The notes beneath the pieces are model-generated. The model saw only the letters and a list, made by a program, of their open reading frames with translations, was not told the DNA's origin and did no database searches. From assembly GCA_009914755.4 (NCBI GenBank), contig CP068257.2:25760001-25824000 (forward strand): a DNA stretch of 64,000 bases, in the 5' to 3' direction. Numbering within the stretch: the first letter of the stretch is position 1; every line of letters starts with the position of its first letter. A program made the translations under genes and the position numbers. Below are positions 6,425-36,109 of this stretch, piece by piece. This stretch comes from the human T2T-CHM13v2.0 reference genome, Homo sapiens.

Positions 6425-6830
6425 AGTGATTATATACATATACATATATATATACACACACACACATTTATGTACACATACGCACACACATATATGTATA
6501 TACATATGTGCATTTTATGTACATATATTTGCTATATAATACAGGTGATATATATAACACATTATATATATTATATAAAATATGTATATATAAATAATAT
6601 ATATTATACATAATATTATACATCTCACCTATATTATATAGCAAATATATGTGATATATATATCTGATATATATGTATGTGATATATACATGCATATGAT
6701 ATATATGTATATCTTGTATACATATGTACATTTAATATATAATACAGTTAATATATACTTTATATATAATACCAGTGAAATAGTCAGTATATTGTATATT
6801 CTATATGTAATACCAGTGATATTATTAACC
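6425..6830. repeat. About 400 bp AT-rich low-complexity block ((TA)n/(TACA)n-like)
   Basis: Direct reading. Spurious ORFs 6468..6731 and 6651..6848 translate to Y/I-rich nonsense. Confidence 0.8.
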
Positions 6831-8796: not shown

Positions 8797-9226
8797 TCCA
8801 CTCGTTGTCGACTTGAACCCATATACACCTCCTGAAATCAAACATAATCTTCAAATAAAGACAATAATACGGTCATAATTATGCCTAACATAATACAGCT
8901 ATCCTTTGTACAACCAAAACGCATCGATCTCCAACCTAGATGCTATGACATAAAGTTAACAACACTTAAATTCTCATATGAAGTCAATAAATCTTATGTC
9001 ACACGACAAAGAAAAAAGAAAGGAAATAAAACGAAGATATGTTAGTACAAGTGTATACATGCACAAACATGTTCTTAACAAAATAAGAAGGAAATACTCA
9101 TTACAATTATAGTCTTCTTTTCTACAATTGGTCATGTGGTCATAGCTGGTATTGATGACTACATTCTTCTACTACTCATTCTATATTCTGTTTGCCTTCA
9201 GCAAGCACCTCAGCAGTCATGGATTT

Positions 9227-10310
9227 TTACCTGGTGAAGTGACCCCAAACCTTCATTTCTAAAGAGTCTGGGCCATTTGTAGTCCTTCCCAGACTGGGCT
9301 GTTGTAGTTTCCCATTGACCTTAATCACACGGCTTGGTAATACTAAGAGATGCCCTAAGGGCTCGTGTATTCCACCCATACTCTTCCTTATCTCCATTGT
9401 GGAGTAGTAGACTTGCACAGCAGCCTGGACCTGTTGCAGAGCCTTCTCCTGTTCTGGACCCCACTCAAAGCTGGCAGCCTTTTGGGTCACTCGATAAATG
9501 GGCCAGAGTAATACACCCAAATGAGGAATGTGTTGCCTCCAAAATCCAAGTAGGCCCACTGGGCATTGTGCCTGTTTCTTGGTTGTAGGAGGGGCCAAAG
9601 GTAGCAAGTTATCCTTCACCTTAGAAGGCATATCTCAACAGGCCCCACACCACTGGACCCCTAGAAATTTTACTGAGGTAGAAGGTCCCTGAATTTTAGT
9701 CAGATTTATTTCCCATCCCCTGGCATTCAAATGTCTCACCCATAAGTACAGTGTGTTTTGCTACTTATCATTCACTGGATCCAATCAGCATAACGTCATC
9801 AATGCAATGGACCAGTGTGATATCTTGTGGAAGGGAAAAGCAATCAAGATCTCTGCAAACAAGATTATGGCACAAAGCTGGAGGGTTGATATACCCCTGA
9901 AGTAGGACAGTGACAGTTTATTGCTGGCTTTGCCAGCTGAAGGCAAATTACTTCCGGTGGGCCTTCTGGGCAGGAATGGAGAAAAAGGCATTTGCCAAAT
10001 CAATGGCTACATACCAGGTACCAGAAGATGTGTTAATTTGCTCAAGCAATGAAACCACATCTGGTACAGCAGCTGCAACTGGAGTCGCATTTGGTTAAAC
10101 TTATGATAATCCACTGTCATTCTCCAAGATCCATTTGTCTTCTGCACAGGCCAAATAGAAGATTTGAACAGGGAGTGGAATCACCTCTCCCGTGTCTTTC
10201 AAGTCCTTGAGGGTGGCACTAATCTCTGGCTTCCCTCCAGGGATGTGATATTGTTTTTGATTCACTCTTTTTTCTTTGTCATGTAACATAAGATTTATTG
10301 ACTTCATATG
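9227..10310 (-). mobile_element. ERV internal fragment: pol (RT + connection region), class I / gammaretrovirus-like, degenerate
   Basis: Minus-strand translation around 9950-10090 gives ...[37 protein letters not shown] (cf. MLV RT WYTVLDLKDAFFCLRL). Around 9780-9800 it gives ...[15 protein letters not shown] (the RT YXDD box). ORF 9227..9631(-) has LGFWRQHIPHLGVLLWPIYRVTQKAASFEWGPEQEKALQQVQAAVQ (cf. MLV [48 protein letters not shown]). Confidence 0.75.
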
Positions 10311-19022: not shown

Positions 19023-19843
<821 letters not shown>

Positions 19844-19866
19844 TTATTTTTATTTTTTATGTTTAA

Positions 19867-20210
<344 letters not shown>

Positions 20211-20781
20211 GAATTGTATATATTTATGCTGTACAACATGTACAATATATATCCAACATATATCTTGGGTATATATCTAGACACCATGGAATGGCAGAAT
20301 CAGGCTAATTATCATATTCCATTTCCTCACACACTTACCATTTTTGTGGTGACAGCACTTAAAATCTACCCTTTTGGCACATAGTACATTGCTGTTAAGT
20401 ATGATCACTGAGTCCTGAACTTATTGCTCCTAACTGAAATTTTAAAATTGATTTCTTTCTTATCTTCCTGTCTTTACTTGGAAGCCAACTATTGTTTTTC
20501 TTGGCTTTTAAATGATGGGTGGCATGCTAATCTGAGGTCCGTTTTGCAAGTTCTTGAGAACAGATTACCCAAGGAAACAACAACCATATTCCCTAGTGTC
20601 TTATGATGTAACCAGTGGAATGGTACCCATGGGAGGAGAGGGAAGAGGTAAAAACTTGGTTGTGGACCTCAGCTCATGCAATTTTGCTCTGTCGTGGGGA
20701 CCCTCTACTGTTCGGCTTTCCAGTGTTACTGTGTGTATTCTTTTATATGCTGAGGAAGTTGTAGGAAAGTAAGGAAAATAA

Positions 20782-21084
<303 letters not shown>

Positions 21085-23700
21085 TGTTCGTTTTTTACAT
21101 CAGCATATCTGTTACTCCCCACTAAGGATGAGGAACTTCGCACTGGAGCAAGATGATTAGGAGAAAAATGAATCTGCTTTGCCACCTAGTTTGGGGGGAA
21201 TTGATGGAGCACACACTTCTGAGGGACACATGATCTCTTTCTCAGCAGTAACTTGCTAATGCTGTACCAGCTTTCAGCTTGTCTGGAAATGGCAAGAGTG
21301 TTTTATGAGTGTCTTATGGACACAATGAATCAGCTTTACCTCAAAATAAAAGTTAAAAAAAAATACATTCTGGCTTACCCCATGATACAATGCTAAGTGC
21401 ATTCATAGGCACACACACGGAGTCTTTCTGTCTAAAAAACAGCACTGTGTTTACATCCTGCCACCTATCTCAGAGGGACTGACTAAGACTTGGAAAACTC
21501 TGATGATATCCTTTAATCTTTTCCTTAATATGGGAATATAGTGTTTAATCTTTGTACCTTTTTATATAAGTTTTCATCTGAAATGGTTTTTTTTCAAATG
21601 TATTTCTCTTAGGTTGGGTGCATGGTGGCACAATATCATGCCTTATTATTTAACGTTCACATCTCCCTCCCAATAATTTAAACCATCCAAATATTTGTTG
21701 ATAATTTTCGTATTCCCATTTCATGTTTGCACAGCCAAATAACACATGTAAAATTCCTTTAATCTCTCCATACAAAATAAATCCTCCACTGCTTTAATTA
21801 TTCCTAGTAGTGCTTTCTGAACTTTTACCAGCCTTGCTTGGCAGAATTATGGTGAGAAAGTTGAATCCAGGCTGTCAGTAGCAAAGTGTTTGCCATGCTA
21901 TTATCCTTGGCAACTGCAGGCCTCCTCCAGGCTACAAAACAGCTCAGTGCCTACCTCCTTTTCCCTGCTTTCTACTGGCCTACAAATTCCAGCTGTGGTC
22001 AGCTGGTGAGCTCTGAGCTACAGGGACGGCGTGGCGCATGTTTTGGGCTTGACTCAGGGATCATGTAATGTTGGGACAGTGAACTTTCCGATGGGAGCCA
22101 ATAACACCCATGATTGTTTTCACCTCCTGACCAGAATGTCTCAACTTAATTCAATCATCTGAACATCAATGAGGGTGACTGGAAAAAATTTTTTATCACA
22201 GCACTAAAATAAAAGCAATTCCAAGATGTTTTCTTTTCCATTGCACATTTTCAGAGCTTTGATTTTCCTGGTAAAATGCTCTTTGCATGTGCCATGTTCC
22301 CAGATTAGGAGAAGATGATACCCAAGGGAGAAGAGGTAAAAATGCACATAAATAATTTTACACCATGACACCGTGGTTAAGGCTTTCAAGGATGCTTTTA
22401 ATGATGCTATGTGCCATGGTTTTAAAAGTCACTATCAAGTTATTTATTTGTATATATTTTGTTTCCTCTTAAAAACTCTTTAAATAAATAAAAGAGGAGA
22501 AATTGTACAAATTTCTTCTTTTACTGTGTACCTACTCTTGCTTTGTGTTTATGAGTGAAGAGAGATGGGGAACATACAGAATATTAAGTGGTATATTTAA
22601 GATACTTGTTCATTTTAAGATTTAGGCTTGCAATTTAGGTGTGCCTAATTTGTCTGCTTTGGGAGCTCAAAGGTCAAGTTGCCACCGCAATTAAGCATCA
22701 ATATTCCTTAATTTGAAGTGTTAAAAAATATGTGTGTGTGAGCGTGTGCATATCTGTGTTCAACTGTCTGCCTTTATTAGTTTTCTAGTCCTGCTGTACA
22801 TAACACATCACTATAGACTTACCACCTTAAATACATAGGTCCAAAGTCTGACACTGATTTCATTACTGGCAACAGGTTCTTTGATATGAGGCAAAAAGAG
22901 TTTTCCCAGACAAGTCTTCACTGGAGCTTGTGCCAGGGCATAAGGGAGACAGCAAGAGAGAAAGAGAGAGAATTCCCTAATTCCACTAGAAGAGCTGTAG
23001 GGCTTTTTTGTTAGGCAAAGCATGGAAATTGACATGCAAGTTGGGCTGGACAAAGCACATAAAGGGTAGAGCACAGGCTAGCATTATCTGGTTGCAATGG
23101 TTGAGTAATGAACCATCTGGTGGTCTGGCCAGTGGCAACAAGGCTGCATTCCTTCCTGAGGTGGGACACTCTGCAACCTTGGTTATCTCCTAAGGCCAGT
23201 TCCTGGAATTCTTTAAGTAAAGACATGTTTAAATGGTGATGTAAGTGAGGTAATGGTGTGAGTTCTGTGATCAGTGAGAATGCATAAAAGACTCCGCTAG
23301 GTGACTTGAAACTGAGCTTCGTCTCCAATCTGCCTCGGTTTCTCTGGATTAAAATTGAGGTATCAGAAGAGTGGGGCTTCTTACCAGAGACAGTGGGAAA
23401 GGATGAAGCTATTGACAGAATTCAGTTTCTTGTGGTTGTAGGCATGAGGTTCCCATCTCCTTGTACTCTGTCAGCTGGGAACTGGTTGTATTTCCTAGAA
23501 TTCTCTTTCCAGTCCTTGTTTGTGGCCACCTCCTATCTAGAACCAGCAGAGGCATGTGGAAGTTGAATGGTTCTCATATTTGGAAGCTGTGTGACTTCCC
23601 CTTCTGCCTTCCTCTTTCACCACATCTCTCTGACACCAGGCAGGGAAAATTCCCTGCTTTGAAGGGCTCATGTGATCAGATTGTGTCTCTCCAGATAATT

Positions 23701-23721
23701 AAAAAAAAAAAAAAAAAAAAA
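23701..23721 (+). repeat. Poly(A)21 tract (tail of a 36-bp retro-insert, see findings)
   Basis: 21 consecutive A. Flanked by near-identical 17-19 bp direct repeats at 23646-23664 and 23717-23735. Confidence 0.7.
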
Positions 23722-23824
23722 TCCCTACTTTGAAGTCTGTAACCTAAAAATTACCCTATATTAAAGCCTGTGTCCTAACATTTTATCTGCAATCATTTTT
23801 TTGTTATTGTTGTTGTTCGTTGGT

Positions 23825-23978
23825 TTCTTTCTTTCCTCTTCCTTCCTTCCTTTCTTCCTTCCTTCCTTCTTTCTTCCTTCCTCCTTCCTTCCTTCCTCCT
23901 TCCTTCCTTCCCCCTCCCTCCCTTTCTTTCTTTCTTTCTTTCTTTCTTCCTTTCTTCTTTTCTTTTCTTTTTTTTTTT
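23825..23978. repeat. Pure polypyrimidine tract ((TTCC)n/(CTTT)n-like), about 154 bp
   Basis: No purines on the + strand across about 154 bp. ORFs 23801..23992 and 23820..24071 are artefacts (FLPS-rich). Confidence 0.9.
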
Positions 23979-25504
23979 GCCATGTACTATAAGCAGCTAT
24001 TTACAGGTTCTAGGGATTTGGTCATGGATTTTTCTGTGTGTGTGGCAGAAAGGGGGCACTATTTAGCCTAAGACTTTCCAGCATCCTCTTTCTCTCTCTC
24101 ACCCTCTTTCTCTGCAACATGGCCTCAAGAGCAAGAAAAAAGATAAGATGCCGAGTCAGAAAAACCTGACTTCAAAATTCTTTCCCCTACCAGCAGCTCA
24201 CTAATTACCCAGCTGGTAATTTGATAACAGGAATTTTCTTCATCCTTTCAAAGATTTGTTTCATTTCTTGTTGTCGTATTTACTTCATCAGGTAATTGTA
24301 AAATTGATGATATAGTCAGATGTCTGCATCTAGTGCTATGCCTGGCATACGGCATGGGAGGGTGCACTTTTAATCCAATTTTATTTCAGAGGAACCATTG
24401 TACATCCTGTTTCTTATCAAAAGTTGCTTCATGGCAGTTACCCCAGGTCACTGAGACCAAGCCAGGGCTGTCATTCTCAGAGGGGGAGATGGAAGGGAGT
24501 GATACAGGGGAGGGCCTAGCAGGCAAAGGAAGTTGGAAACTGTCCTCTGTAAGCCCAGCACGTGGGAAGCAGCTGGGTGCATTAATTTCACCTTTGTCAT
24601 CCCTGGCATTGAAAAACCACAACCAGCTTACACGGAAAGGATTCTCAAATGGAACTTTCTCAAATTTATGGTGAAAAACACTAGGAAACTGCTTTGAATT
24701 GAAGCATGGCGCTGATGGTTATCCAGTTCATCCTCTCTGCTAAAGCCATTTGACTCTCATGTGCTTAATAAGAGATCCTTGGAAACATTAAGTGCTATCC
24801 AAGAAGCAAAAATAAAGCAGAACAACCAAAACAAAATGAAAACAAAAAATAAGAGCAATAACCTGCATGGTAATAGGAGAAAATTTTATTTTTTATCTAT
24901 TTTCTTCAAATCTTGCTTATAGGTAAAAGAGAAAATTATTTGAGTAAATATAATGCATTCCCTAAAGAAACAAAAAAGATACTCAGAGGTCCTCTGAAAC
25001 CCAGCTCCCCATCTTCTTATTAGACTATGACTGAACATTTGCCCAATTGGACATATCACACCCTCTGGCTAGAATGTGGTATTTACATTGTTATAAATAA
25101 ATTGACATGTGTGTATAGCTCTGGTGGGGGGACCGTGGACAATAGAGCACATACTGTTCCTGAGTTCATCTCATGTTCCCTCAGTCAGTTTCAGTCAGAG
25201 ATGAATGTTCATTTAATCAGGAAATTTTATCTTGTCTTTAAAAGCCTTGGCAACTGTAAATGAGGGGAGATCTAAGATTAGTAATGTACTCTGACAAACT
25301 CTTCTTTTTAAAAATTATGTCAGATTTTCCAGAGCAGGATTTCAGTTTTCTTCTACAAAGTTTATTCTTAGCTTATACAAAATAGGCTTACTCTAAAACC
25401 CTAATCATGAAGTAGTACATTCAGATAATAGGGAAATTAAAATATATCAAAATGAAACAGCAGAAAGTAAACATGCCATCCTTATTTTATGTCACTGGAA
25501 AAAA

Positions 25505-25526
25505 GTGTGTGTGTGTGTGTGTGTGT
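25505..25526. repeat. (GT)11 microsatellite
   Basis: Direct reading. Confidence 0.9.
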
Positions 25527-26010
25527 TTAGCACTAGCATGTGGCATTACAGGACATTTAGGTTACCATTTAAAATTTCTCTAACAAATTATGGTAATAAC
25601 CATTTATTGAATCTAACAAAATGACTTCTTTTGAAACATGGTAGCCTGAGCTTAATTGTCTGTCATCATCTCTATCTAAACCCCTATAAAAAATTTCTGT
25701 CTCACAACTTTTTTTTTGTGAAATGCTTAAGTTCAATTATTTTTAATTTTGTTTGCTTTTTAATAAATATATTGAAGGTTAATTTTATTTTAATAACTAC
25801 CTTAGTCATATCACATACATTTTGAAAGGCAACGTATTCATTTCTAAATAATCTTTCCGTGATAATACTTATTTTTCAACTGCAAGTTTATTGGAAGAGT
25901 GTTATTTAAAAAGATTGTAGGGGTTGTAACTATCTGTTTACCCCTTCATTCATCGAGCTATCCATCAATGCAAGCATCAGTCTTCCAAATCAGTACTATT
26001 TATCTCTATC

Positions 26011-26284
26011 ATTTCTTGTGTATATTTTGTTGTTAATTCTATTTTGACTCTATTGTACTCAGAGAATATATATTTGTGCTACATGTAGCACAAAAAACAA
26101 TGAGTTGAACAACACAGTTTAGAAATGCTAAAGCAGAAATAAAGGTTTTTCAAGTTGTATCTCACAAATCTATAATAATAATGGAAGAAAATCCATAGCC
26201 CTTTTAGTATCAATAGTTGAACTTTATATTCTCTGAGTACAATAGAGTCAAAATAGAATTAACAACAAAATATACACAAGAAAT
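26011..26284. repeat. Perfect 60-bp inverted repeat (arms 26011-26070 and 26225-26284) with a 154-bp spacer. The spacer begins with a perfect 22-bp palindrome (26073-26094).
   Basis: Reverse complement of atttcttgtgtatattttgttgttaattctattttgactctattgtactcagagaatata equals tatattctctgagtacaatagagtcaaaatagaattaacaacaaaatatacacaagaaat, 60/60 identical. tttgtgctacatgtagcacaaa is self-complementary. Confidence 0.9.
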
Positions 26285-26540
26285 ATATATTCCCCCTAGC
26301 CTCAACTCCTCAGGCTCTGATAACCACGGTTTTGCTCTCTACTGCTGTGACACCAGCTTTTTTAGATTCCACAAATGCGTAAGATCATGTGGTACTTTTC
26401 TTTCTGTGCCTGGCTTATTTCACTTAATGTCATACAGGTTCATCTATGTTAATGCAAAAGACAAGATTTCATTCCATTTTATGGCTGAGTAGTATTCTTT
26501 GTGAATCTATATCTATACCACATTTTGAATGGAACTTGTA
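26225..26540 (-). mobile_element. Old L1 (L1PB/L1MA-like) 3-prime-UTR fragment
   Basis: Reverse complement of 26285-26370 reads ggaatctaaaaaagctggtgtcacagcagtagagagcaaaaccgtggttatcagagcctgaggag... (cf. old L1 3-prime end ggaatctaaaaaagtcgaactcatagaagcagagagtagaatggtggttaccagaggctgggg). Further in: ...ggcttatttcacttaatgtcatacaggttcatctatgtt...ttatggctgagtagtattc. Confidence 0.55.
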
Positions 26541-27059
26541 GTTTCTTTTAACTATTGATTAAAAAGTTAGAATTAAATGCGAAAAGTAAACGTATATATG
26601 ATGTATACATGTATGTATGATGTTTGTATATATGTATACATATATATAATAATGTGAGTGCCATTTTAAAAGATTGTCTCTAAATATTGGGTCGTGTTAC
26701 AAAGTAAACCTCAAGGAATTAGAAGTAAACATTTAAGACAGGCCGCACAATTAAATTTTGTATCTTTATTTTAGTGACTAAATATCTTGCTTCACAGCTT
26801 TCCAGCCTTAGTAAATGGGTGGTTGATTCAAGCTAAATTCAACATATTTAAATTTAAATTTCTTATCACAGAGCCATCTTTGTTTATCCTATTTTCTCCC
26901 ACTCACTATTTTGTGCTTTGTAATTACTTACTACAGGAAACTGCACCTAATATGTATGGTACTTTATACAACTGAGTACTTTCTACCAAATCCCGTGAAT
27001 GAAGCCAGGTTCTATTTATCTTCAATTACATAACTTAGGAAATATGAGGGATATTTTAT

Positions 27060-30246: not shown

Positions 30247-30553
30247 GGCTGGGCGTGGTGGCTCACGCCTGTAATCCCAGCACTTTGGGAGGCTGAGGCG
30301 GGCGGATCACGAGGTCAGGAGATCGAGACCATCCTGGCTAACACGGTGAAACCCCGTCTCTACTAAAAATACAAAAAAAAAAAAAAAAATTAGCTGGGTG
30401 TGGTGGTGGGCGCCTATAGTCCCAGCTACTCAGGAGGCTGAGGCAGGAGAATGGCATGAACCCAGGAGGCAGAGCTTGCAGCGAGCTGAGATAGCGCCAC
30501 TGCCCTCCAGCCTGGGCGAGAGAGCAAGACTCCATCTCAAAAAAAAAAAAAAA
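30247..30553 (+). mobile_element. AluY-like element, plus orientation, A16 tail, perfect 14-15 bp TSD
   Basis: ggctgggcgtggtggctcacgcctgtaatcccagcactttgggaggctgaggcgggcggatcacgaggtcaggagatcgagaccatcctggctaacacggtgaaaccc... then an A run at 30539-30554. TSD aagagtaaagttctt at 30232-30246 and agagtaaagttctt at 30554-30567. Confidence 0.92.
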
Positions 30554-30851: not shown

Positions 30852-34740
<3,889 letters not shown>

Positions 34741-34800
34741 GATGTTAGCTGGTTATTTTGCTTATTAGTTGATGCAGTTTCTTCCTAGCATCAATGGTCT

Positions 34801-35832
34801 TTACAATTTGGCATGTTTTTGCAGTGGCTGGTACCAGTTTTTCCTTTCCATGTTTAGTGCTTCCTTCAGGATCTCTTGTAAGGCAGGCCTGGTGGTGACA
34901 AAATCTCTCAGCATTTGCTTGTCTGTAAAGGATTTTATTCCTCCTTCACTTATGAAGCTTATTTTGGCTGAATATGAAATTCTGGGTTGAAAATTCTTTT
35001 CTTTAAGAATGTTGAATATTGGCTCCCACTCTCTTCTGGCTTGTAGAGTTTGTGCTGAAAGATCCACTGTTAGTCTGATGGGCTTCCCTTTGTGAGTAAC
35101 CCGACCTTTCTCTCTGGCTGCCCTTAACATTTTTTCCTTCATTTCAACCTTGGTGAATCTGACAACTATATGTCTTGGGGTTGCTCTTCTTGAGGAGTAT
35201 CTCTGTGGCGTTCTCTATATTTCCTCAATTTGAATGTTAGCCTGCCTTGCTAGGTTAGGGAAGTTCTCCTGGGATAATACCCTGAAGAGTGTTTTCCAAC
35301 TTGGTTCCATTTTCCCCATCACTTTCAGGTACACCAATCAATCATAGGTTTGGTCTTTTCACAAAGTCCCACATTTCTTGGAGGCTTTGTTCGTTTCTTT
35401 TTACTCTTTTTTCTCTAAACTTCTCTTCCTGCTTCATTTCATTCATTTGATCTTCAATCACTGATATCCTTTCTTCCACTTGATCGAATTACATACACTA
35501 CCTGAAGCTTGTGTATGCATCAGGTAGTTCTTGTGCCATGGTTTTCAGCTTCATCAGGTCATTTAAATTATTCTCTGCACTGTTTATTCTAGTTAGACAT
35601 TCGTCTAATCTTTTTTCAAGGTTTTAACTTCCTTGAGATGGGTTTGAACATCCTCCTTTAGCTTGGAGAAGTTTGTTATTACCGATCTTCTGAAACCTAC
35701 TTCTGTCGGTTCGTCAAAGTCATTCTCTGTCCAGCTTTGTTCCATTGCTGGTGAGGAGCTGAGATCCTTTGAAGGAGAAGTGGTCCTCTGGTTTTTAGAA
35801 TTTTCAGCTTTTCTGTTCTGGTTTCTCCCCAT
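34801..35832 (-). pseudogene. L1 ORF1 remnant (N- and C-terminal pieces intact, middle disrupted)
   Basis: 35605..35832(-) and 34801..35142(-) match the L1 ORF1p N- and C-termini. Confidence 0.85.
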
Positions 35833-36109
35833 CTTTGTGGTTTTATCTACCTTTGGTCTTTGATGATGGTGACCTACAGATGGGGTTTTGGTGTGGATGT
35901 CCTTTTTGTTGATGTTGATGCTATTCCTTTCAGAACAGGGAAGTGCTTTTAAAGAAGAAAAAGAAGAGAGACAATGAATATAGGAACAGAAATATAATCA
36001 AAGTTGGCAGAGAAATAGAGGCTGTTCTACGAGAAAACAATGATGCAAAGAAAGAGAAAAGGAGAGATAAGAAATGGAGAGAGAGATGTTTTTAATAAAG
36101 GACACTTCA

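What the first reader, a model, noticed from the sequence alone, without database searches (positions are those of the whole stretch)
26011..26284. Perfect 60-bp inverted repeat with a 154-bp spacer, built from the tail of an old diverged L1
The arms 26011-26070 and 26225-26284 are exact reverse complements, 60 of 60 bases. The right arm is contiguous with a minus-strand L1PB/L1MA-like 3-prime UTR fragment (26285-26540), and that fragment is substantially diverged from consensus. A perfectly identical inverted copy of its last 60 bp therefore must be much younger than the L1 itself. The alternative is that the two arms are being homogenised by arm-to-arm gene conversion, as happens in genomic palindromes. 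The spacer starts with a separate perfect 22-bp palindrome (26073-26094, tttgtgctacatgtagcacaaa, centred on CATG). Such a structure can extrude a cruciform or hairpin. It is a candidate site for replication-fork template switching, deletion-prone instability or structural polymorphism. It could also be an assembly artefact.
Basis: seen in the sequence. Interest (0 to 1): 0.6.

Follow-up and report, generated by a model that had tools for sequence, protein, structure and literature searches.

The report
Young inverted duplication beside split L1
A perfect 60-base inverted repeat really is there in this primate DNA, but it is not made from L1 sequence; it looks like an ordinary, fairly recent copying error (a polymerase briefly copying the wrong strand) at the edge of a 5.8-kb stretch that splits an old L1, with no sign of a function.

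Summary
Positions 26011-26070 and 26225-26284 are exact reverse complements (60/60), with a 154-bp spacer. Positions 26073-26094 form a perfect 22-bp palindrome. None of this is chance.

The arms are not the tail of the L1. Homology to about 120 L1 3' ends stops at 26288-26293. The same L1 resumes seamlessly 5.8 kb to the left, at 20478. So one old L1 (about 25% from a crude consensus) is split by a non-L1 block, 20479-26288. The right arm is the last 60 bp of that block, 4 bp (ATAT) from the junction.

The repeat and the small palindrome form one structure. It is a 73-bp-arm palindrome centred on CA|TG (26083/26084), and its right arm is interrupted by 130 bp.

I found no target-site duplication, no other copies, no Rfam family and no protein.

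Best reading: a mutational scar from short-range template switching or fold-back synthesis. It is far younger than the L1, roughly under 20-50 My. It has no function, and the long spacer suggests low fragility.

Orthology, polymorphism and assembly error could not be tested here. Interest is low.

The parts
26011..26070 (+). Left arm A (60 bp, no CpG, about 27% GC) of the perfect inverted repeat
   Evidence: exact reverse complement of 26225-26284; inverted-repeat pair I1.
26071..26072 (.). TA dinucleotide between arm A and the small palindrome. It is part of the self-complementary 10-mer AATATATATT (26065-26074).
   Evidence: The same 10-mer recurs at 26282-26291 (family D2).
26073..26094 (.). 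Perfect 22-bp palindrome (P + rcP) centred on CA|TG at 26083/26084. This is the centre of symmetry of the whole structure.
   Evidence: it is its own reverse complement; longest palindrome in the window, and arms of 11 or more appear in only 5 of 100 simulated windows.
26095..26224 (.). 130-bp unique segment that interrupts the right half of the 73-bp-arm palindrome, taking the place of the expected TA
   Evidence: for the anatomy; no similarity to anything else in the window or in the 121 fetched loci.
26225..26284 (-). Right arm (reverse complement of A). It is the last 60 bp of the non-L1 block.
   Evidence: for identity to A. L1 homology begins only at 26288-26293.
26285..26288 (.). ATAT junction bases between the right arm and the L1 fragment
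   Evidence: L1 copies align up to GGGGGAAT, which ends at 26289 on the minus strand.
26289..26526 (-). L1 piece A: the end of ORF2 and the first ~80 bp of the 3' UTR. It is old, with p about 0.25 from a crude consensus.
20479..26288 (.). 5.8-kb non-L1 block that splits the L1. It contains one old Alu (20787-21084) and simple repeats, and its nature is unidentified. The left boundary is uncertain by about +/-25 bp.
   Evidence: the L1 pieces are contiguous in L1 coordinates; no LTRs, terminal inverted repeats (TIRs) or Pfam hits, and no similarity to the window or the loci apart from the Alu.
19850..20478 (-). L1 piece B: the rest of the same L1's 3' UTR through to its A-rich end, interrupted by an Alu at 19920-20209

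Best explanation
The structure is a mutational scar, not a functional element. It is a local inverted duplication made when a DNA polymerase, during replication or break repair, briefly switched template or folded back and copied the opposite strand of nearby sequence, then returned. Known names for this are short-range template switching under the 'four-point' model, and snap-back synthesis.

The product is best described as a palindrome with 73-bp arms: A (60 bp) + TA + P (11 bp), mirrored about CA|TG at 26083/26084. Its right arm is broken 11 bp from the centre by 130 bp of unique sequence. That pattern means either two inverted segments separated by a forward segment in one complex event, or two closely spaced events. 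Both junctions are TA-rich, and the self-complementary 10-mer AATATATATT sits at each. This would give the microhomology needed for switching.

The last copying event is recent compared with everything around it. It is younger than, or about as young as, the youngest Alu in the window, and vastly younger than the L1.

Shown: the anatomy, that the arms are not L1, the split L1, the lack of transposon hallmarks, and the relative youth.

Inferred: the mechanism, which arm is the copy, and the absence of function.

I lean slightly towards the right arm being the copy, because it sits at the block/L1 junction as templated junction insertions do. This is not established.
For: - The arms are perfect (60/60), and both ends show abrupt loss of all similarity, with no diverged remnant of a longer old repeat.
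- The 22-bp perfect palindrome starts 2 bp from the arm's inner end and is colinear with the arms. Chance adjacency is roughly 1e-5, given 5/100 occurrences per 64 kb (anatomy).
- TA-rich self-complementary microhomology sits at both junctions (family D2).
- The arms, spacer and flank have no L1 homology. The L1 continues at 20478.
- There is no target-site duplication: the flanks are TCTCTATC and ATATATTC.
- The arm 30-mer has no other copy in the window or in the metagenome collection.
- The region has no similar sequence in the 246 kb of mammalian contigs fetched.
- No Rfam family matches, and no protein homologue was found for the overlapping ORF.
- Internal clock: P(0 differences at 71 paired positions) is 0.09 at the non-CpG divergence of the youngest Alu (1.7%), 0.013 at 3%, and below 1e-14 at L1-like divergence.
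- Published events are comparable in size. PMC5453318 describes template switches that create new inverted repeats and hairpins in one step. bioRxiv 10.1101/2021.11.26.470150 reports inverted fragments up to 90 bp in complex sequence, 318 bp overall, and a double event of 62 + 32 bp separated by a 16-bp forward fragment.
Against: - No ancestral or orthologous allele could be examined, so the insertion has not been polarised. The mechanism is inferred from one sequence.
- At 60 bp, the copy is at the long end of reported short-range template switches. A 130-154-bp forward gap is larger than in the published double event.
- No clean microhomology sits exactly at the outer junction (26010/26011).
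- The simple model does not explain why the right arm ends 4 bp from the block/L1 junction.
Confidence: 0.6

Rival explanations
1. The inverted repeat was made in the same event that joined the 5.8-kb block to the L1. In this history, a break in the L1 was repaired by copying or capturing foreign DNA. The free end folded back and copied its own last ~73 bases before being joined to the other L1 end. The mechanisms would be MMBIR, synthesis-dependent end joining or polymerase-theta-type snap-back. The right arm would then be a templated junction insertion, and the block insertion would be as young as the repeat.
For: - The right arm ends 4 bp from the block/L1 junction, and the L1 halves abut without loss in L1 coordinates.
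- The block has no transposon hallmarks: no LTR, TIR or target-site duplication (TSD), and no protein hits.
- Inverted templated insertions at repair junctions formed by fold-back are documented (abstracts of PMC11724301, PMC5728401 and PMC4912351, listed).
Against: - Such junction insertions are usually 5-34 bp (abstract of PMC11724301). This one is 60 bp plus 11 bp with a 130-bp detour.
- The block contains an old Alu (8.5% non-CpG divergence). If that Alu inserted in place, the block is far older than a perfect repeat allows. It could, however, have travelled with the block.
- No source copy of the block could be searched for.
Confidence: 0.2
2. This is an old inverted repeat whose arms are kept, or were recently made, identical by arm-to-arm correction. 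The mechanism would be quasipalindrome template switching or gene conversion, not a recent de novo duplication.
For: - Classic template switching converts near-perfect inverted repeats into perfect ones (PMC5453318) and homogenises arms (abstract of PMC8604942).
- It would reconcile an old block/L1 junction with perfect arms.
Against: - No diverged inverted similarity remains beyond the perfect arms: 0 of 12 matches outward and random-level matches inward. A correction tract would have had to cover exactly the whole old arms.
- From general knowledge, not tested here: mammalian homologous gene conversion is inefficient below about 200 bp of homology.
- The 154-nt loop makes hairpin formation on replicating DNA less likely (PMC7999016).
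Confidence: 0.1
3. It is a miniature DNA transposon of 274 bp with 60-bp terminal inverted repeats.
For: The formal architecture fits: two inverted termini around a short unique core.
Against: - There is no target-site duplication of any usual length. The flanks are TCTCTATC and ATATATTC, with no TA or TTAA.
- The left flank is not L1, so this is not a simple insertion into the L1.
- No other copy was found in the window, in 246 kb of mammalian contigs or in the metagenome scan.
- No transposase is present.
- From general knowledge: primate DNA transposons have been inactive for tens of millions of years, which fits badly with perfect arms.
Confidence: 0.03
4. It is an assembly or cloning artefact: a chimeric fold-back read or polymerase snap-back in vitro that was incorporated into the consensus.
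For: No independent copy of the locus could be retrieved. In-vitro template switching can produce inverted copies.
Against: - The structure has a long unique spacer, and normal sequence resumes on both sides.
- The split-L1 context around it is coherent.
- The region has no match to plasmid or vector sequences.
- In PMC5453318, every inspected template-switch candidate was confirmed as reliable assembly.
Confidence: 0.05

Closest known systems
Short-range template-switch mutations (four-point model; Loytynoja & Goldman 2017, PMC5453318; Loytynoja 2022, bioRxiv 10.1101/2021.11.26.470150)
   Same: Both involve a perfect inverted copy of nearby sequence with sharp boundaries, and both create a hairpin-forming repeat in one step. 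The size is within the reported range, and adjacent double events separated by a forward fragment have been described.
   Different: At 60 bp (73 bp counting the colinear palindrome half), the copy is far above the typical length of 10 bp or less. The forward fragment is 130 bp, against 16 bp in the published double event. The ancestral state is unknown here.
Snap-back / fold-back templated inverted insertions at double-strand-break repair junctions (SD-MMEJ, polymerase theta-mediated end joining; PMC5728401, PMC4912351, PMC11724301)
   Same: An inverted copy of flanking sequence sits within 4 bp of a junction between unrelated sequences (block and L1), with TA-rich microhomology.
   Different: Reported insertions are mostly 5-34 bp. 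Here the copy is 60 bp, made from a template 154 bp away. There is no direct evidence that the junction and the repeat arose together.
Palindromic AT-rich repeats (PATRRs) and other fragile palindromes
   Same: The sequence is AT-rich, the arms are perfectly complementary, and the predicted hairpin is strong (-74.8 kcal/mol).
   Different: In my recollection, PATRRs are near-spacerless palindromes several hundred bp long. This structure has 60-bp arms and a 154-bp spacer. The review PMC7999016 indicates that such a spacer strongly reduces hairpin formation and breakage in eukaryotes.
MITE-like non-autonomous DNA transposons (for example MADE1)
   Same: Both have two inverted termini around a short core.
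   Different: This structure has no target-site duplication, no family of copies and no known terminal motif. Perfect arms are also implausible for ancient primate elements.

Membership tests
Short-range template-switch / fold-back inverted duplication | Inverted copy of nearby sequence with (near-)perfect identity and abrupt boundaries | tested here: met
   60/60 identity, with 0 of 12 matches just outside the arms.
Short-range template-switch / fold-back inverted duplication | Source and copy lie within a few hundred bp, and the copy length is within the reported range | tested here: met
   The spacer is 154 bp. The literature reports inverted fragments up to 90 bp in complex sequence and 318 bp overall.
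Short-range template-switch / fold-back inverted duplication | An ancestral or alternative allele lacks the inverted copy | not testable with these tools
   No primate genomes are available. The exact-ORF look-ups, the protein search and the arm 30-mer scan found no independent copy of the locus.
   homology to 121 L1 3' ends stops at 26288-26293, although 88 of them extend at least 300 bp further; the L1's real continuation is at 20478.
TIR DNA transposon / MITE | Target-site duplication flanking the terminal inverted repeats | tested here: not met
   the flanks are TCTCTATC and ATATATTC, with no TA, TTAA, TWA or 8-bp duplication.
TIR DNA transposon / MITE | Multiple dispersed copies | tested here: inconclusive
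   No copies were found in the window, in 246 kb of mammalian contigs or in the metagenome collection. That collection covers only a small, unknown fraction of a primate genome.
Fragile AT-rich palindrome (PATRR-like) | Long near-perfect palindrome with no spacer or a very short one | tested here: not met
   The arms are 60 bp and the spacer 154 bp. Only the inner 22-bp palindrome has no spacer.
Structured RNA gene (miRNA or other Rfam family) | Match to a curated covariance model | tested here: not met
   nothing in 26011-26284 comes near a gathering score. The best hit is MIR530 at 18.8 bits against a threshold of 85.
Large genomic palindromes kept identical by gene conversion | Kilobase-scale arms, and diverged orthologues whose arms are identical within each species | not testable with these tools
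   The arms here are 60 bp, far below that class. No between-species comparison is available.

The most novel reading that the evidence does not exclude
The inverted repeat may be the fold-back end of a single, young, lineage-specific complex germline rearrangement. In this reading, a break in an old L1 was repaired by copying about 5.8 kb of ectopic DNA. The synthesis ended in a snap-back (A-TA-P mirrored, with a 130-nt detour) before returning to the exact point of departure in the L1. That would be a fully resolved natural example of a kilobase-scale templated insertion with an inverted terminal signature. It might still be polymorphic.
Probability: 0.15. Interest if true: 0.4.

Novelty: new member of a known kind. 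Interest (0 to 1): 0.2.

Why it matters
The finding matters little on its own. It is one more example of how template switching creates perfect hairpin-forming repeats in neutral primate DNA. It is unusually long and cleanly structured, and it sits at a junction that splits an L1.

If primate alignments showed that the repeat and the 5.8-kb block arose together, the locus would be a neat natural record of a multi-step replication or repair error. If it were polymorphic, it would be a useful test locus for variant callers, which handle such clusters badly according to PMC5453318. There is no evidence that it has any function or medical relevance.

Tried and rejected
- **Independent copies or orthologues of the locus.**
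  - Four exact-ORF look-ups found nothing.
  - A protein homology search with the 91-aa ORF spanning the arm/L1 junction found no candidates.
  - An arm 30-mer scan of the metagenome collection gave 0 hits.
  - Age and polymorphism therefore could not be tested directly.
- **L1 reference sequences.** Scans with an L1 25-mer returned one 341-bp contig from bacterial genome contigs and nothing from viral contigs. The metagenome scan gave 120 usable loci.
- **L1 origin of the arms.** Rejected.
- **Transposon reading.** Rejected for the 274-bp unit, which has no target-site duplication. Also rejected for the 5.8-kb block, which has no LTRs, no terminal inverted repeats (local alignment score 12 against a shuffle mean of 12.4) and no Pfam hits.
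- **RNA gene.** Rejected. The weak mir-297/mir-466 hits at 26586-26649 fall on a TG/TA-rich simple repeat outside the structure.
- **Vector or plasmid contamination.** No match.
- **Microhomology models.** I tried models in which the palindromic 10-mer AATATATATT directly primes the switch between 26065-26074 and 26282-26291. Traced by hand, the predicted products (a tandem A-A, or a spacer in forward orientation next to the L1) do not match the sequence, so that specific path is rejected.
- **Small matches judged to be chance.** These were an 8-bp direct repeat AGTTGAAC near both ends of the 130-bp segment, and a 9-mer inverted match (CAACTATTG) between the block's left end and the spacer.

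Full report
**Observation.**
The window is primate DNA. It contains eight Alu copies, has 37% GC and a CpG observed/expected ratio of 0.20. Positions 26011-26070 are the exact reverse complement of 26225-26284, 60 of 60. The spacer is 154 bp. Identity ends abruptly: none of the next 12 outward positions pair, and the inward positions pair at the random level.

Positions 26073-26094 (TTTGTGCTACATGTAGCACAAA) form a perfect palindrome. It is the longest in the window. Palindromes with arms of 11 or more occurred anywhere in only 5 of 100 simulated 64-kb sequences.

A window-wide scan finds no other long, high-identity inverted repeat within 3 kb. A 30-mer from the arm has zero chance expectation. 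As single-stranded DNA the region folds at -74.8 kcal/mol, against -21.5 +/- 3.5 for shuffles (z = -15.4).

**The arms are not L1.**
I fetched 120 mammalian contigs carrying the conserved end of L1 ORF2 (246 kb in all with L001). I compared them with the minus strand of 25300-26560. Up to 122 alignments cover 26400-26440. Coverage falls to zero between 26300 and 26281, and most alignments that reach the 3' UTR end at 26288-26293. Nothing matches the arms, the spacer or the left flank, although 88 of the 121 L1 copies continue at least 300 bp beyond that point.

The fragment is old. It differs at about 25% of sites from a crude 92-copy consensus.

The rest of this L1 is 5.8 kb to the left. On the minus strand, an L1 3' UTR starts at about 20478 and runs to an A-rich end near 19850, interrupted by an Alu. 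Against the best reference (L099), piece A ends at reference position 136 and piece B begins at 135. The joined pieces align straight across the junction. So one old L1 is split by a block, 20479-26288. The right arm is the last 60 bp of that block, separated from the L1 by ATAT.

**What the block is not.**
The block has no LTR-like direct repeats and no terminal inverted repeats. Its ten longest open frames give no Pfam hits. Apart from one old Alu, it resembles nothing else in the window or in the 246 kb of fetched mammalian DNA, which is largely L1. Its nature stays unidentified without a repeat library.

**A better description of the structure.**
The reverse complement of 26011-26083 (A + TA + TTTGTGCTACA) is TGTAGCACAAA + TA + rcA. 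The window has TGTAGCACAAA at 26084-26094 and rcA at 26225-26284. The 60-bp repeat and the 22-bp palindrome are therefore one object. It is a palindrome with 73-bp arms centred on CA|TG (26083/26084), and 130 unique bases (26095-26224) interrupt the right arm 11 bp from the centre, in place of the TA.

The self-complementary 10-mer AATATATATT lies at the left arm's inner end (26065-26074) and at the right arm's outer end (26282-26291) (family D2).

**Alternatives tested.**
- *Transposon.* The flanks are TCTCTATC and ATATATTC, so there is no target-site duplication. No other copies were found. The left flank is not L1.
- *RNA gene.* No Rfam family comes near threshold.
- *Protein.* The ORF spanning the junction has no homologue.
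- *Vector.* No plasmid match.

**Age.**
The arms contain no CpG. The window's Alus show non-CpG divergence from an AluY consensus of 1.7% to 10.5%. The table gives the chance of zero differences at 71 paired positions.

| Per-copy divergence | P(0 differences at 71 pairs) |
|---|---|
| 1.7% (youngest Alu) | 0.09 |
| 3% | 0.013 |
| 20-25% (L1-like) | below 1e-14 |

With textbook neutral rates of 0.5-1.2e-9 per site per year (my knowledge), the 95% upper bound is about 18-50 My and the median about 5-12 My. The last copying event between the arms is therefore recent and far younger than the L1.

**Mechanism.**
The pattern matches short-range template switching. The signs are a perfect inverted copy of nearby sequence, sharp boundaries, a second colinear inverted segment, TA-rich junctions and no mobile-element hallmarks.
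- PMC5453318 describes the four-point model, including one-step creation of hairpins and new inverted repeats.
- bioRxiv 10.1101/2021.11.26.470150 reports inverted fragments up to 90 bp in complex sequence and 318 bp overall. It also reports a double event of 62 + 32 bp separated by a 16-bp forward fragment.

Fold-back (snap-back) synthesis at a broken end gives the same product (abstracts listed).

I cannot tell replication from repair, nor which arm is the copy. The right arm's position 4 bp from the block/L1 junction favours it being a templated junction insertion. That in turn raises the possibility that the repeat and the junction were formed together. The old Alu inside the block (8.5% non-CpG divergence) argues against a young block, unless the Alu travelled with it.

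Recent re-homogenisation of an older repeat is possible. It is disfavoured because no diverged inverted similarity remains outside the perfect arms.

**Consequences.**
No function is indicated. The review PMC7999016 states that longer arms, higher identity and shorter spacers raise fragility. In eukaryotic cells, inverted Alus stalled forks with a 12-bp spacer but not with a 52-bp spacer. The eukaryotic Okazaki initiation zone is only 100-200 nt. With 60-bp arms and a 154-bp spacer, this structure is expected to be fairly stable.

**Limits.**
No orthologous or allelic sequence could be obtained. Lineage specificity, polymorphism, polarity and assembly correctness all remain untested.

**Verdict.**
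This is a real, non-random but ordinary mutational scar of a known kind. It is mis-attributed to L1. Interest is low.

Noticed in passing
window 19116-19843 (minus strand): A processed pseudogene of ribosomal protein L10 (uL16) lies immediately beyond the L1's A-rich end. Two adjacent reading frames both hit Pfam Ribosomal_L16 (E = 4.7e-14 and 4.1e-09), so there is a frameshift. The region has 53% GC and a CpG observed/expected ratio of about 0.6.
   Followed up: partly
window 19850-20478 and 26289-26526 (minus strand): These two L1 fragments, 5.8 kb apart, are halves of one old L1. They are contiguous in L1 coordinates and split by an unidentified non-L1 block.
   Followed up: yes
window 8975-9032 and 10253-10310: A second inverted repeat: 58 nt, 86% complementary, 1220 bp apart. 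The arms flank an open frame (9230-9634, minus strand) that reads like a retroviral pol fragment by eye but has no Pfam hit. It might be the termini of an old mobile element.
   Followed up: no
window 30852-35997 (minus strand): A much younger L1 with long open stretches. A 378-aa ORF2 piece hits RVT_1, and a 137-aa ORF1 piece hits Transposase_22 and Tnp_22_dsRBD at E = 1e-40. An Alu is inserted at 30247-30538, next to its 3' end.
   Followed up: partly
window 6521-6652: An imperfect palindrome without spacer, 132 bp long (66-nt arms, 77% complementary), lies in TA/CA-rich simple sequence. It is probably microsatellite-derived.
   Followed up: no
window 26586-26649: A TG/TA-rich simple repeat gives weak sub-threshold Rfam hits to mir-297, mir-466 and mir-3149 (best 33 bits against a gathering score of 90). 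This is a low-complexity artefact, not a miRNA.
   Followed up: partly
window 20481-20507: A small hairpin-forming inverted repeat (AAGCCAA ... TTGGCTT, 7-bp stem, 12-nt loop) sits within the first 30 bp of the block's left end, next to the other block/L1 junction. It is weak and could be chance.
   Followed up: no
L065, L048, L109, L092 (and L118): These metagenome contigs carry the same truncated L1 locus with near-identical flanks. They look like host (primate) contamination, with the same genomic site sampled in different datasets.
   Followed up: no
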